From Methanobacteriota archaeon (GTDB lineage: Archaea > Halobacteriota > Bog-38 > Methanoflorentales > Methanoflorentaceae), in the NCBI GenBank assembly GCA_963720465.1, contig OY970393.1:1248001-1312000 (forward strand): a stretch of DNA of 64,000 bases, given 5' to 3'. Shown piece after piece: positions 29,489 to 52,470 of the stretch (positions are counted from its first letter, which is position 1; each line of letters opens with the position of its first letter). Below the pieces are notes generated by a model. The model was not told where the DNA came from. It was given only the letters and a program-made list of their open reading frames with translations, and did no database searches. The translations under genes were made by a program, and so were the position numbers.

Positions 29489-29719
29489 GCCCCGAACTCT
29501 GATTCACAGTGATCGCTTCCGAATGGTCTGTCTCTCTATCTCGCATCGGTCGTCGACGAATCTTTCAATCCGTCAGTGTAGCGTGAGGTGATGGTATAAA
29601 CGTTTTCATCTCATTTTGTCGTCGCAAGCGGATAATCACAACGATTAAGGTGCTTGCACTGACCCGATTCCATTATTCTACCCGAACCACATTACTGAGA
29701 CCTTTTCGCTGATGCTGCA

Positions 29720-30040
29720 TTGCCCAAACACGAGTTGCTGGCGATTCAGCGCAGCAAAATCTCTCTGCACCACGCAAAAACTGGTTACGACTACCCAACA
29801 ATACGGCTACCACACACATTTGCGAAAGTTGCTGGACTGTCTACACAAATCTATCAAACGGTGCACGAAGGGATGCTCGCGTTTCTAGTGGTTGCGTCGC
29901 CTAGAGGCATGTCAAAAAATACTGCCGAACATCTAACAACGACCTTGCTTGCTCAGAATCCTCCGTCTTCACACGGCGGAGGTCGCCGATTCGAATCCGG
30001 CCGGGCCCATTGGTTTTTTTTGGATGATTTGGTCGATTAG
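29720..30040 (+). CDS. small YxxPxIRLP-family protein, copy A1 (putative AbrB-like), 3' end runs into a tRNA fragment
   Basis: SKISLHHAKTGYDYPTIRLPHTFAKVAGLSTQIYQTVHEGMLAFLVV; clear paralog of 38253.. and 29969..; probably frameshifted near both ends. Confidence 0.65.
   Translation: MPKHELLAIQRSKISLHHAKTGYDYPTIRLPHTFAKVAGLSTQIYQTVHEGMLAFLVVASPRGMSKNTAEHLTTTLLAQNPPSSHGGGRRFESGRAHWFFLDDLVD
29963..30009 (+). tRNA. 3' half of tRNA-Val(CAC), att-like fragment (not an intact tRNA)
   Basis: CCGTC-TTCACAC-GGCGG anticodon arm, AGGTC variable loop, GCCGA-TTCGAAT-CCGGC T arm (one mismatch), CGGGCCC-A acceptor strand; no D arm or 5' acceptor strand upstream. Confidence 0.85.
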
Positions 30041-30289
30041 ACCGCAATATAGATCCGAATTATTATGGTTCCCGTGACTTGCCGATTTGTCTAATTTGTC
30101 TAAACTGTCTAAATGAGGCGCAATAAAGAAACCGGCAAGGCCGTTAAATTCCATTTGATAGATACTCACAGTTTTCCCGGCAAACTCTTTGGATGCTCTT
30201 GGCAAGCGAATAAGCGGAAACGCGTACGTTGGATTAGAGGATTGAAGCGAGACTTTTGTGGTAAAAACTTTCTTCACGGCGGAATTCAT
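29969..30289 (-). CDS. small YxxPxIRLP-family protein, paralog B, convergent on the tRNA fragment
   Basis: TKVSLQSSNPTYAFPLIRLPRASKEFAGKTVSIYQMEFNGLAGFFI; the tail MGPAGFESATSAV is the antisense tRNA. Confidence 0.65.
   Translation of the reverse strand: MNSAVKKVFTTKVSLQSSNPTYAFPLIRLPRASKEFAGKTVSIYQMEFNGLAGFFIAPHLDSLDKLDKSASHGNHNNSDLYCGLIDQIIQKKPMGPAGFESATSAV
30014..30021 (+). terminator. oligo-T archaeal terminator-like tract after the tRNA fragment
   Basis: Run of 8 T a few nt downstream of the discriminator base. Confidence 0.5.
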
Positions 30290-30384
30290 CGTGTATCTAC
30301 CCGATCTAAAAGATCAAATCTGAATTGTGTGTCAAACAAATAGTTTTATTTGTCGCCGAACCTAAAGTCTTCTCTTTGAAAGCG

Positions 30385-30966
30385 ATGGCAATTGAAACGC
30401 GAATGACGATTTTGGGTAAGTTTTTGCTTTTTATCGGTGCATATATTCCCGTCTTGCTGTTGTTGATTATAAAATCGGCTTCAGCTTTGACGTTTGATTT
30501 TTGCTTTTCGGCTTCAGTTTGTTTATTTCTTGTCATAGCAAGCCTAATTTTCTGGATGTACTTTCTCCGCGACGCCGAACGGCAGACAGGTTCTATCTTT
30601 AACATTAAAGAATGCCAGAATCAAGCAGCTAAGCCTCTAAATTATTTAATCCCCTACATTTTGGCATTAGTTGGTCTCAGTCTCGGCAGCATTCAAGATT
30701 TGATCGTTTTAATAGTCCTACTTGTTTGGTTGTTCATTGTCTATTCGAAATCTGACGTACTCTTTTCTGAAGTATTATTCTTCAATCCAATGTTTTACTT
30801 GAGCGGTTACCAAATGTATCAGGTCAAAGCCTATTCCCCCGGTGTTAACGAAAACCAAGCTTCCGGAGCATTACTGATTTCAAGAAAAAAGCTTGCAGCC
30901 TTACCAACGCCGATAAGCGTTAAAGAACTGGATACCGGCGTCATTATGGATATCAGCAAGACGTGA
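30385..30966 (+). CDS. kwaA: Kiwa anti-phage system membrane protein KwaA-like
   Basis: KFLLFIGAYIPV, NYLIPYIL, FNPMFYLSGYQMY motifs; TM helices; directly upstream of a DUF4868-like gene; AT-rich. Confidence 0.7.
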   Translation: MAIETRMTILGKFLLFIGAYIPVLLLLIIKSASALTFDFCFSASVCLFLVIASLIFWMYFLRDAERQTGSIFNIKECQNQAAKPLNYLIPYILALVGLSLGSIQDLIVLIVLLVWLFIVYSKSDVLFSEVLFFNPMFYLSGYQMYQVKAYSPGVNENQASGALLISRKKLAALPTPISVKELDTGVIMDISKT

Positions 30967-30970
30967 GAGC

Positions 30971-31908
30971 ATGTCAGAAATCAATAAGATTAAGCAGTTC
31001 CTTGAGAGCGCAGATCCGGATAATGCTCAGTTCTTTTTTGTGAAGCGAGGCCAAGCCGGTTCTGACTATAAATACACAATTCTAAAAGCTAATATTGAAC
31101 CCAATCTTGCGCAAGAACTTCTTAACATCGGCACTGGGCAAGCAGAGAAGCTAAGTAACGAGGCCGAACAACGAGAGTATCCGGGCCCTCTGAGTTTTGA
31201 CCGATTATACGTCTTAACCAGGAAAGTTAGAAACGTTCCATATCTGGAATCAGTGCTGAGTAAACTAGCTGCGGTCGGATCAGAACCCTTCGTAGAGACT
31301 GTAAAAAATATCAGGGGATATGCACTAAGATTGCAAAGTGTAGACACGTCCCTTTATTTGTTCAAAAAATATCCTCAGATGAAAGGTGTACGAAGAAAAA
31401 AGTGGGTCGCCTTCAAGAAAGGGAAATTAATACTCGTCGATGAAGCGCCATTAATGATTTTTATGGACTACGACGCAGCAATCTTGTTGCAACAGTCAAC
31501 GTTAGCCGATGAGACTGTTTGCATTTTCAATGTGCGCAAGTTTGAGTCGTTGTTTAGTTTCTACCAATATTACCGAAATAAACTGGAACAAATAGGGGCA
31601 CGACTACCGGTTCAATCATTCTTAGATGATAGCCAGTTATTCCTTAAACATTGCATGAAAGATCCAGCGAAACTAAGGAAAATGTACACGATTCTTGAAG
31701 GTGGCGACTTAGAAAAAATAAGGTAGACAAGCTTGACCGAATAATAACTAGATACGACATAGGATTAGACCACGATGATCAAACGGGCAAGATCAAGGTA
31801 ACTGAAGAAAAAATGTGGAAAATACTCGGCTTGCTGAATGACGATTATGTTCAATCTACTCGCACCGGCACAAGATATGAAGCGCGAAGCAAAGTGAGGT
31901 TGCGATGA
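30971..31908 (+). pseudogene. kwaB: Kiwa KwaB-like (DUF4868) protein, 1-nt frameshift at about 31720
   Basis: IFNVRKFESLFSF; after the slip the frame continues VDKLDRII...ILGLLNDDYVQSTRTGTRYEARSKVRLR*, the characteristic DUF4868 C-terminal motif. Confidence 0.72.
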
Positions 31909-38158: not shown

Positions 38159-38252
38159 AGTGCTCACATTTTTCTGGCAGTAACAAGATACTCGCCCAGT
38201 CATTCGCGGACAATCGCAGCGGTTACGGCTGCAGCCTTAAGGTCTTTCATTT

Positions 38253-38530
38253 ATGTCAGCTATCAACGTTGATACCAACTTCTCTGCTGACGTCGCTTTG
38301 CCGAAAAGCGAGTTGCTGGAGATCCATCGAAGCAAAATCGGGCTGTATCGCTCGAAAGCAGGATACAACTATCCTACGATTCGGCTGCCTCACAAACTCC
38401 ACAAGCTCGCAGGGTTGCCAGTTAGAACCTACCAGGCTGTTCACGAAGGGGCGCTAGCCTTTCTGTCGTCATCTCGTCCACACAAGATGTCTCAAAAAGT
38501 TCCGAATCCCCCGTCTTCACACGGCGTTAA
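38253..38530 (+). CDS. small YxxPxIRLP-family protein, copy A2, ending in the tRNA-Val anticodon arm
   Basis: SKIGLYRSKAGYNYPTIRLPHKLHKLAGLPVRTYQAVHEGALAFL; after a 1-nt slip VVISSTQDVSKSSESPVFTRR*. Confidence 0.65.
38504..38526 (+). repeat. direct repeat of 29956..29978 (att-core-like, tRNA-Val anticodon arm)
   Basis: GAATCCCCCGTCTTCACACGGCG vs GAATCCTCCGTCTTCACACGGCG, 22/23 identical. Confidence 0.85.
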
Positions 38531-39040
38531 TTTAGACGATTAAAACTCTCTGGAACTCCCTGCTGACTGAGGGTCATTAGGGATGTTATTTCTAATAGCG
38601 ATCTATCCCGTGCCTTTCAGTATTCTGAAGCATTTCGGACATCCATGATAATTTGATTCTAATTAGTAACTATCTTATCATACGCCTTTTTCTGACGAAA
38701 AATGAATCGGCTTGACAGCGTAATGCGGCCGCTCTTTTGCGGCGTGATCGCTCGAAAAACAAGGGAGTTATCAGAACTACCTTAACGTGTGCGTCGCACC
38801 TTTTCACATTGAGATAAAAACCGTCTAAACGGTCGGCATCTTCCCTTCTTTTTTTCATAATCCTAGCTGATAACACGATGATATTGAATAATCGTAACAC
38901 TTTAGCCGCTTTCGCCCACTGACCGCGACCTGGAAAATCACGGAGAAGATCTCGTTTCGTTTAAGCCCATTTAACCTGCCTTTTACCGGCAGTTTTTCAA
39001 AGATTGCGCACCTTGCGCAATTCCGACAAAAACAGAAGCG

Positions 39041-51884: not shown

Positions 51885-52129
51885 TTTCTATTTCCCCCAA
51901 GCTCTCTTGCGCTTTGCTAGAGTTAATACCTTAGCACATTTTAATCAAATAGCTTAAGAATCAAAGCTTGCCGGTGCCCAACACTGCATGTAAATATCAT
52001 ATACCGGCTCAGGCCTCGGACTCTTGTAAAATCGCCAATCCACCCCGTTCACACCGTGGGACACCGTTGGTTAATATGTAATTCTTGTTTGATTGATCCG
52101 ACTGTAGTATATGCTGCTCGCAAAATTTC

Positions 52130-52470
52130 CTTAGATCTCCATTTACGATGCGAGCGCCGCATGTCGGCACTGAAGATTCTATACGCGTCTCCCATCCTTG
52201 GTGAAGTTCTCGTTCAAGCTCACTGCATGCTGATCTGGGTGGGATAAAATATCTGGATAAGCGGCGTCAATTGTCGGCCGGAGCTCTCGATGTCTGGGAT
52301 TATGACCATAACGTCCTCTCCCCAAGCTCTTCCCGCGTGTAGCCAAAGAACCTCGCGCCATAATCGTAGATGAATGTGATTATGCCTGCTGGATCGACGG
52401 TGCAGATGATGCTACTTGCAGTCTCCACAAGAGTGCGATATTTCTGCTCGTCTTCTTCAGCTTGGCGGCT
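52130..52470 (-). pseudogene. PAS-domain sensor remnant
   Basis: EQKYRTLVETASSIICTVDPAGIITFIYDYGARFFGYTREEL...LNENFTKDGRRV*, with slips. Confidence 0.7.

What the first reader, a model, noticed from the sequence alone, without database searches (positions are those of the whole stretch)
29680..30289. Two paralogous YxxPxIRLP genes converge on a tRNA-Val(CAC) 3' half: candidate signature of an undescribed archaeal integrative element family
Seen: gene A1 (+) and gene B (-) share the pattern K.SL......Y..P.IRLP......AG....IYQ....G...F. Both reading frames run into the same 47-nt tRNA-Val fragment (anticodon arm through discriminator, then oligo-T), and no tRNA 5' half is present. Established: tyrosine-integrase elements carry the tRNA 3' portion in attP, often cross over in the anticodon loop, and tandem integrations regenerate attP-like junctions. 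Inference: A-att-B is an attP-like junction in which each element end carries its own paralog of a small, possibly AbrB-like DNA-binding protein (directionality factor or regulator). I do not recognise this architecture from described elements.
Basis: partly seen in the sequence, partly recalled or inferred. Interest (0 to 1): 0.82.

Follow-up and report, generated by a model that had tools for sequence, protein, structure and literature searches.

The report
Two split-integrase stubs sharing one att
The two small genes that meet at a tRNA-Val fragment are the severed front ends of two self-splitting integrases, left by mobile elements that inserted into the same tRNA target in a methanogen; the mechanism is known, but this integrase family appears undescribed.

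Summary
A (+, 29720-30040) and B (-, 30289-29969) are paralogs: 16/46 identical, E 1e-9. Both frames run into a 43-nt copy of the tRNA-Val(CAC) 3' part (29967-30009), and the window holds no tRNA.

They are not free-standing regulator genes. They are Int(N) stubs of a tyrosine integrase that carries its att site inside its own reading frame and is cut in two on integration, as 'suicidal' SSV-type integrases are. At four element borders in this genome, the N-piece at one end and a ~340-aa C-piece at the other translate the shared tRNA repeat in the same frame. The C-piece folds as a tyrosine recombinase. Uninterrupted N-att-C proteins exist. A belongs to a type that reads sense to the tRNA, B to an antisense type, so their stubs converge on one hybrid att.

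New here: neither half matches a Pfam or NCBIfam model. The family has proliferated (33 N loci and 47 C loci in 2.3 Mb). It forms tandem-type junctions that a 2020 survey of suicidal integrases reported as never observed.

The parts
29720..30040 (+). A: Int(N) stub of a sense-type self-splitting integrase. It has a TTG start; the N-domain (YxxPxIRLP) is at 29744-29890, and the tail is the in-frame translation of the att fragment (..PPSSHGGGRRFESGRAH..).
   Evidence: ORF; N-domain HMM 1-49; the same att translation continues into a C-part in one ORF in P0124 and in the sense-type tRNA-Val(TAC) element.
29960..30009 (+). Hybrid att. 29967-30009 is the tRNA-Val(CAC) 3' part (linear positions 32-74, 41/43 identical). 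29960-29967 is an element-borne strand that pairs with the 3' anticodon-stem strand and extends the stem to 8 bp.
   Evidence: one match in the window and 0 in 100 shuffles.
30014..30021 (+). Run of eight T after the discriminator. It also lies in B's coding frame (KK).
29969..30289 (-). B: Int(N) stub of an antisense-type self-splitting integrase. The N-domain is at 30122-30268. The tail translates the antisense tRNA 3' end (..PMGPAGFESATSAV) and stops at the TGA of the antisense anticodon loop.
   Evidence: Its closest in-genome paralog (51% identity) sits beside intact tRNA-Asp and has a same-frame Int(C) partner 18 kb away.
30085..30111 (.). ATTTGTCTA x2 plus a third degenerate copy, inside B's linker between the N-domain and att. 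This is a candidate arm-type site (inference).
   Evidence: comparable short tandem repeats occur in 6 of the 7 regions given to that call.
30325..31726 (+). KwaA-KwaB (Kiwa defence pair) in the low-GC stretch directly inside B. Probably cargo of the element that B belonged to.
   Evidence: Pfam KwaB 6.2e-14; PADLOC KwaA 9.7e-21 and KwaB 1.7e-12; GC 0.41-0.45 at 30-33 kb.
38241..38540 (+). Third Int(N) stub, A-like. The N-domain is at 38322-38465, and the att is truncated right after the anticodon loop (38505-38527).
51963..52194 (-). Int(C) C-terminal remnant (profile positions 237-312 of 322).

Best explanation
A and B are the N-terminal pieces, Int(N), of two related tyrosine integrases that carry their recombination site (a copy of part of a tRNA gene) inside their own reading frame. 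When such an element integrates into the tRNA gene, the crossover cuts the int gene. Int(N) stays at one element border reading into the tRNA sequence. Int(C), which holds the core-binding and catalytic domains, starts in the other copy of the repeat at the far border. One lineage (A-type) reads in the same direction as the tRNA, so its Int(N) ends at the displaced 3' fragment (attR). The other lineage (B-type) reads antisense, so its Int(N) abuts the tRNA side (attL). Both lineages use tRNA-Val. Where an A-type element lies to the left of an att copy and a B-type element to the right, the two stubs converge on one shared att. That is what stands at 29720-30289. Shown here: the split-gene architecture, the recombinase fold of the C-piece, and the existence of uninterrupted N-att-C genes. 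Inferred: that the N-domain binds DNA, possibly at arm sites. How this particular junction arose is also inferred. It could be tandem integration into tRNA-Val(CAC) followed by loss or rearrangement of the left element. It could equally be an att-by-att inversion that joined an attR to an attL. The data do not separate these routes. The body of the left element is gone: ABC-transporter genes begin about 130 nt before A's conserved unit.
For: (1) tRNA-His element: an N-piece with the YxxPxIRLP domain reads antisense into intact tRNA-His. A 343-aa ORF starts in the 44-nt, 100% identical repeat 22 kb away. Both translate the repeat as the same 18 residues in the same frame.
(2) The same holds at three more borders: the antisense type at tRNA-Asp, the sense type at tRNA-Val(TAC), and a sense type that uses the 5' half of tRNA-Asp.
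(3) The C-piece model has mean pLDDT 89.8. All 34 Foldseek PDB matches at E<=1e-3 are tyrosine recombinases, with archaeal Xer 4a8e at E 1e-5. VIA-align gives 4a8e Z 16.7 (rmsd 8.8, 249 aligned) and the SSV1 integrase catalytic domain 3vcf Z 12.8 (rmsd 3.1, 159 aligned). PHROG integrase families match at 1.1e-5 and 3.9e-5. R194, K226 and R287 are invariant, and H310 and Y320 at least 90% conserved, in 31 sequences. JGI names many homologs 'integrase'.
(4) Uninterrupted forms exist. L022 is one 465-aa open frame with N-domain HMM 1-49 and C profile 7-313. P0342 (475 aa) and P0356 (414 aa) carry both parts. P0124 has the N-domain, the same att peptide as A, and the start of the C-part in one ORF.
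(5) The genome map has 33 N loci, 47 C loci and 18 tRNA fragments arranged as tRNA<-N...<-C frag, tRNA->C...N->frag, or N->att->C.
(6) Convergent N->att<-N junctions recur: at genome 1680.4-1681.1 kb, homologous over the whole unit; around intact tRNA-Asp; and in two other genomes, L035 and L036.
Against: No Int(C) partner or second att copy can be assigned to A or to B in the window. There is only a C-terminal Int(C) remnant at 51963-52194 and a third N stub at 38241-38540, so for this locus the model rests on paralogs. Uninterrupted N+C proteins are rare: 0 of the 120 best C-piece homologs, 2 of 149 representatives, and 1 of the 10 long frames fetched for one search showed N and C parts, and there in adjacent, separate frames. 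The 'longer' search with A found only 5 fused proteins and none was a full integrase. Many N-pieces keep open, conserved frames (170 small homologs), which would also fit a stand-alone function. Neither half matches Pfam Phage_integrase or Phage_integr_3. Genes between B and the next stubs are mostly metabolic, so the element body is not delimited.
Confidence: 0.85

Rival explanations
1. One reading: A and B are autonomous small DNA-binding proteins (AbrB-like regulators or directionality factors), one at each end of an element, and A-att-B is an attP-like junction.
For: Most database homologs are small stand-alone ORFs: 170 of 175 candidates of 58-186 aa at E<=1e-3. Many copies keep open frames. 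The N-domain model is a small beta-rich unit with one short helix, and the ..IRLP..(helix)..AG.. pattern recalls AbrB-type motifs (the resemblance itself is recalled, not tested).
Against: The domain is fused in frame to a tyrosine recombinase in L022, P0342 and P0356. At four borders the N and C pieces read the att repeat in one frame. There is no Pfam, PHROG or NCBIfam hit, no PDB profile hit, and no fold match from a model of pLDDT 66.7. Elements with both ends identified carry one N stub, not two.
Confidence: 0.07
2. The A and B identities are as in the best explanation, but the junction did not arise by tandem integration. It arose by a site-specific or homologous inversion or translocation between an attR of a sense-type element and an attL of an antisense-type element located elsewhere.
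For: The intact tRNA-Val(CAC) is 1.09 Mb away on the opposite strand. Seven tRNA-Val(CAC) fragments lie scattered in both orientations. No element body or Int(C) lies to the left of A, where ABC transporter, cupin and flavin reductase genes stand. Integrase-driven and element-driven chromosome inversions are reported for Thermococcus (PMC8371274 and PMC7253208, passages read).
Against: The same junction type occurs at intact tRNA-Asp with elements on both sides, which needs no inversion. The two routes give identical local sequence, so nothing here excludes tandem integration followed by deletion.
Confidence: 0.35
3. The fragment is half of a split or intron-bearing tRNA gene, or an assembly artefact.
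For: Archaea do have split tRNA genes (recalled). With its intron option ARAGORN joins distant halves elsewhere in this genome.
Against: A complete tRNA-Val(CAC) exists. The fragment has a T-stem mismatch. No tRNA model matches. Contigs from four runs bridge the junction. The same architecture recurs in this genome and in two others.
Confidence: 0.01

Closest known systems
Suicidal (type I, SSV-type) archaeal integrases: SSV1, pTN3 and pT26-2 families
   Same: The att site lies inside the int reading frame. The target is a tRNA gene. Integration leaves int(N) and int(C) at opposite borders beside direct repeats of tRNA sequence. The catalytic domain has the tyrosine-recombinase fold (SSV1 3vcf, Z 12.8, rmsd 3.1, 159 aligned).
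   Different: No match to Pfam PF16795, which the 2021 review gives as the mark of the known suicidal families (PMC8371274, passage read). The N-terminal YxxPxIRLP domain matches no library. The host is a methanogen recovered from sediment or peat-type metagenomes rather than a hyperthermophile. There are dozens of copies per genome. Tandem-type junctions (N->att->C and N->att<-N) are present, whereas the 2020 survey states that tandem insertions were never observed (PMC7253208, passages read).
pTN3-type integrases (5'-half tRNA targeting)
   Same: One sub-type here uses the 5' part of tRNA-Asp: a fragment of positions 1-40 is followed by Int(C), and Int(N) reads into the intact gene.
   Different: The review calls pTN3-like integrases unique among archaeal ones in this respect (PMC8371274, passage read). 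Here the same protein family has both 5'-targeting and 3'-targeting members, and the repeat extends upstream of the tRNA.
Lambda-type integrases with an N-terminal arm-binding domain
   Same: There is a small N-terminal domain ahead of the core-binding and catalytic domains. Short direct repeats lie near att. The C-part aligns to lambda Int over both domains (1z19_A Z 12.6, rmsd 5.2, 240 aligned).
   Different: Arm binding is only inferred. The N-domain model is low-confidence and matched nothing. In lambda the att site is not inside the int gene (recalled).
AbrB/SpoVT-type DNA-binding domains
   Same: Small size and an IRLP-helix-G motif pattern (a recalled resemblance).
   Different: No Pfam hit at E<=1, no PDB profile hit, and no structural match.

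Membership tests
Suicidal (SSV-type, type I) archaeal integrases | The att site lies inside the integrase reading frame and is translated | tested here: met
   The same-frame peptide is encoded by the repeat at both borders in four element pairs. L022, P0342 and P0124 carry a tRNA-derived stretch between the N and C parts.
Suicidal (SSV-type, type I) archaeal integrases | Integration leaves int(N) and int(C) at opposite element borders next to direct repeats of the tRNA target | tested here: met
   Shown for the His, Asp (two types) and Val(TAC) elements. For A and B themselves only the int(N) side is present in the window.
Suicidal (SSV-type, type I) archaeal integrases | Tyrosine-recombinase catalytic domain with conserved R, K, R, H and Y residues | tested here: met
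   Fold shown. R194, K226 and R287 are invariant; H310 and Y320 are at least 90% conserved. Assigning them to catalytic roles is inference.
Suicidal (SSV-type, type I) archaeal integrases | Sequence membership in Pfam Phage_integr_3 (PF16795), reported for the SSV, pTN3 and pT26-2 families | tested here: not met
   0 matches in the whole genome. No hit for the C-piece, L022, P0342 or P0179 even at E<=10.
Suicidal (SSV-type, type I) archaeal integrases | Catalyses integration and excision at the tRNA att site | not testable with these tools
   Needs a recombination assay.
AbrB/SpoVT-like DNA-binding proteins | Match to the family's sequence models | tested here: not met
   No Pfam family at E<=1 for A or B. 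Nothing in PHROGs or NCBIfam.
AbrB/SpoVT-like DNA-binding proteins | Swapped-hairpin beta-barrel fold | tested here: inconclusive
   The monomer model has pLDDT 66.7. The best Foldseek match was E 0.27, and the best VIA Z was 4.0 (rmsd 4.1, 71 aligned), to kinase N-lobes.
Split or intron-bearing archaeal tRNA gene | A matching 5' half and the absence of another complete gene for the same tRNA | tested here: not met
   A complete tRNA-Val(CAC) lies at genome c[191891-191964]. No tRNA or half-tRNA model matches in the window.
Kiwa defence system (neighbouring cargo) | Adjacent KwaA and KwaB genes | tested here: met
   PADLOC KwaA 9.7e-21 and KwaB 1.7e-12; Pfam KwaB.

The most novel reading that the evidence does not exclude
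This is an independently evolved, so far unnamed lineage of self-splitting integrases in mesophilic methanogens. After integration its severed N-terminal module persists as an expressed small DNA-binding protein. That protein would bind the short repeats next to att and control further integration or excision at the site, so the 'suicide' would leave a working regulator behind.
Probability: 0.15. Interest if true: 0.7.

Novelty: new variant of a known kind. Interest (0 to 1): 0.5.

Why it matters
Self-splitting ('suicidal') integrases have been described mainly from hyperthermophilic archaea. They have been treated as one Pfam-defined group, and tandem insertions were reported as never observed (PMC8371274 and PMC7253208, passages read). 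The family seen here differs on each of those counts:

- **No curated model:** it matches none of the curated models searched.
- **Host range:** it sits in a methanogen family where 22 of 23 other genomes searched carry the N-domain, with up to 39 matches per genome.
- **Orientation and target:** it includes sense and antisense members, and members that target the 5' half or the 3' half of a tRNA gene.
- **Tandem-type junctions:** it leaves many of them, plus long rows of int(C) stubs.

That makes this genome family a natural record of repeated integration, decay and att-mediated rearrangement. It also offers a test of whether self-splitting arose more than once.

For annotation it explains dozens of 'hypothetical' 100-aa ORFs. 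It also explains ARAGORN's tRNAs with giant introns in these genomes.

Tried and rejected
**N-domain fold**
- The AlphaFold model of A has pLDDT 66.7.
- Foldseek PDB gave nothing at E<=1e-3.
- VIA-align wide gave a best Z of 4.0 to kinase N-lobes, which I take as noise.
- The PDB profile search gave two chance-level rows.
- The ESM Atlas gave only scores under 0.9, one of them a tyrosine-recombinase cluster, which is a lead only.

**Sequence searches that found little or nothing**
- The C-piece alone against PDB by sequence gave only chance hits. As a profile its best hit was XerH at E 0.037.
- Two viral-contig scans, one with A and one with the C-piece, found no relatives.
- tblastn of the full-length L022 protein found nothing in the phage or plasmid collections.

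**Synteny**
- I hoped the best relative locus (L009) would be syntenic and date the junction. Only the int(N) unit aligns, from about 100 nt upstream of the gene to the anticodon loop.

**Long open frames in relatives**
- In none of the 10 are N and C detected in one frame.
- L038 has N, att and C contiguous, but N is out of frame.
- L044 has N and C in adjacent frames.

**Other attempts**
- A relaxed T-arm pattern search for a second att in the window gave chance-level counts: 10 matches against 7.7 expected.
- Expression: no RNA holder was listed for the stretch.
- Literature: I searched 'suicidal integrases' + archaea + tRNA, 'SSV-type integrase' + methanogen, and 'suicidal integrase' from 2021 on. 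None of the listed papers describes this family. I saw only search listings, plus passages of PMC8371274 and PMC7253208. Their supplementary tables, which list the integrases surveyed, were not seen and may bear on the novelty claim.

**Correction to my notebook**
- It says 18 N loci lie next to a tRNA feature. A recount gives 17 rows, which is 16 loci.

Full report
**What is at the locus**

ORF A (+, 29720-30040) and ORF B (-, 29969-30289) each encode 106 aa. They share the K.SL..Y..P.IRLP..AG..IYQ..G..F core, with 16/46 identical and E 1e-9. Between them, 29967-30009 matches linear positions 32-74 of the genome's tRNA-Val(CAC) gene at 41/43 bases. A run of eight T follows.

Both frames stay open into the fragment. 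ARAGORN and Rfam find no tRNA in the window. The window is genome positions 1248001-1312000 of a single 2.31-Mb contig with 51.7% GC. The intact tRNA-Val(CAC) lies at c[191891-191964]. Contigs of four DNA runs bridge the junction. These runs come from one study and may be the source, so they are not independent.

**A large family tied to tRNA sequence**

A six-frame HMM search found the N-domain at 33 loci in this genome (35 rows of at least 21 model positions). Of these, 16 loci (17 rows) have a tRNA gene or tRNA fragment downstream. Nine read sense to it and seven antisense. Fifteen lie at 12-233 nt and one at 655 nt.

BLAST of the genome's own tRNAs found 18 stray fragments of tRNA-Val (CAC, GAC, TAC), tRNA-Asp and tRNA-His. 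A second A->att<-B junction lies at genome 1680.4-1681.1 kb and is homologous over the whole unit. Neither A nor B matches Pfam, PHROGs or NCBIfam.

**The key result**

At tRNA-His, an N-piece with the domain reads antisense into the intact gene. Twenty-two kb away, a 44-nt, 100% identical copy of the tRNA 3' part is overlapped by the start of a 343-aa ORF that reads into the element. Both ORFs translate the repeat as the same 18 residues in the same frame. They are therefore the two halves of one gene cut at the repeat.

The same holds at three more borders:
- **Antisense type at tRNA-Asp.** The attR there has lost 18 nt between two CCGACTCGGG repeats.
- **Sense type at tRNA-Val(TAC).** The C-part frame runs out of the intact tRNA, and the N-piece 26 kb away reads the fragment in the same frame.
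- **Sense type using the 5' part of tRNA-Asp**.

**The C-piece is a tyrosine recombinase**

- The AlphaFold model has mean pLDDT 89.8.
- All 34 Foldseek PDB matches at E<=1e-3 are tyrosine recombinases.
- VIA-align gives archaeal Xer 4a8e Z 16.7 (rmsd 8.8, 249 aligned). It gives Tn1549 Int and lambda Int Z 12.6-12.9, and the SSV1 integrase catalytic domain Z 12.8 (rmsd 3.1, 159 aligned).
- R194, K226 and R287 are invariant in 31 sequences, and H310 and Y320 are at least 90% conserved.
- PHROG integrase families match weakly, at 1.1e-5. A PDB profile search puts XerH first at E 0.037.
- Pfam gives nothing even at E<=10. PF16795 has no match anywhere in the genome. The ten PF00589 matches lie elsewhere.

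**Uninterrupted forms exist but are rare**

- L022, in a sister-genus chromosome, is one 465-aa open frame with the N-domain and the full C profile. A 16-nt tRNA-Val anticodon stem-loop match lies between them.
- P0342 and P0356 carry both parts: 2 of the 149 representatives tested.
- P0124 joins an A-like N-domain, the same att peptide as A, and the start of the C-part.
- None of the 120 best C-piece homologs has the N-domain.
- None of ten further long frames has N and C in one frame.

This rarity is what a gene split in the integrated state would give. It is also the main caveat.

**Reading the junction**

The genome map shows three patterns:
- tRNA<-N ... <-C frag, for antisense-type elements
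- tRNA->C ... N->frag, for sense-type elements
- N->att->C, where same-type elements abut or an intact copy persists (747.5, 721.5 and 1533 kb)

A is a sense-type stub and B an antisense-type stub. A sense-type element to the left and an antisense-type element to the right of one att copy give N->att<-N.

B stops at a TGA that comes from the antisense anticodon loop of tRNA-Val(CAC). The antisense tRNA-Val(GAC) loop has no stop in that frame. The two tRNAs share their last 35 nt. B-type elements may therefore be native to tRNA-Val(GAC); this is inference.

Convergent junctions also occur around intact tRNA-Asp and in two other genomes, L035 and L036.

**What cannot be settled**

No element body remains to the left of A. 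An ABC transporter, a cupin and a flavin reductase stand there. To the right lie a low-GC stretch with a Kiwa pair, then metabolic genes, a third N stub at 38241-38540 and an Int(C) remnant at 51963-52194. Tandem integration followed by decay and an att-by-att inversion give the same local sequence.

**Distribution**

The host carries McrA. The N-domain, queried with A's first 62 aa, was found in 22 of 23 other genomes of the same family, with up to 39 matches each. It was found in 0 of 17 genomes from 12 other families of the phylum. Among the 29 best relatives' loci, 20 have a tRNA-Val-like fragment just downstream in sense, and 17 of these are at least 22 nt long.

The C-part profile is wider. 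It was found in 22/23 genomes of that family, 11/27, 2/8 and 1/4 of three other families, and 0 in the remaining families of a 200-genome sample. There are no relatives in the phage or plasmid collections.

**Comparison with what is known**

The behaviour matches that of suicidal (type I, SSV-type) integrases. [quoted passage not shown] This family differs in four ways:
- It lacks the PF16795 signature that the review gives for the known families.
- It has its own N-terminal domain.
- Its host is not a hyperthermophile.
- It shows tandem-type junctions, which the 2020 survey says were never observed among 73 integrases (PMC7253208, passages read).

I file it as a new variant of a known kind.

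Noticed in passing
window 30325-31726: A KwaA-KwaB (Kiwa) defence pair sits directly inside B, in the lowest-GC stretch of the window (0.41-0.45). It is probably cargo of the antisense-type element.
   Followed up: partly
window 38241-38540: A third Int(N) stub, A-like. Its att remnant ends right after the anticodon loop, which fits a crossover or deletion at that point.
   Followed up: partly
window 51963-52194 (-); genome 2303158-2312034 and 367280-385115: Rows of short Int(C) C-terminal stubs (last 30-75 residues) on one strand, about 0.7-4.5 kb apart. Examples are six in a row after the tRNA-His element and several between the tRNA-Asp att copies. They look like scars of repeated integration and deletion at one site.
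   Followed up: no
window 30085-30111; L001 773-806; L006 6144-6180; L035 1215-1277; L036 1901-1936; L003 1780-1797: Antisense-type Int(N) genes carry 2-3 short tandem repeats in the linker between the N-domain and att. They are ATTTGTCTA or AATTTAGCT at 9-nt spacing, or a shared AAGTTATACAAC core at 21-nt spacing in four loci of three genomes. They are candidate arm-type binding sites and were not tested.
   Followed up: partly
genome 747219-747795, 2112483-2113724 and three others: With its intron option ARAGORN calls five 'tRNAs' with introns of 488-1148 nt. At least two of them span an Int(N) stub, and one also an att fragment, so they are likely false joins of tRNA-like pieces.
   Followed up: partly
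genome 329869-347542 (L003 in part): Intact tRNA-Asp is flanked on both sides. On the left is a sense-type element that duplicates the tRNA 5' part (positions 1-40) plus about 60 nt upstream. On the right is an antisense-type element that uses the 3' part.
   Followed up: yes
genome 710811, 731138, 747751, 815070, 1277967, 1680731, 1991321: Seven tRNA-Val(CAC) 3' fragments lie in both orientations across 1.3 Mb, while the only intact gene is at 191.9 kb. This suggests att-mediated or element-mediated chromosome rearrangements.
   Followed up: no
L038 (G002:C91) and L044 (G010:C5): N, att and C parts are contiguous in the DNA. However, N is out of frame (L038) or separated by a stop or frame change (L044). 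These are candidate hybrid or decayed reconstituted int genes.
   Followed up: partly
window 29914-30014: Contig depth rises 2- to 9-fold over the att fragment in all four laid runs, and loose ends there read like the 5' part of a tRNA-Val. Other tRNA-Val copies in the samples map to this stretch.
   Followed up: no
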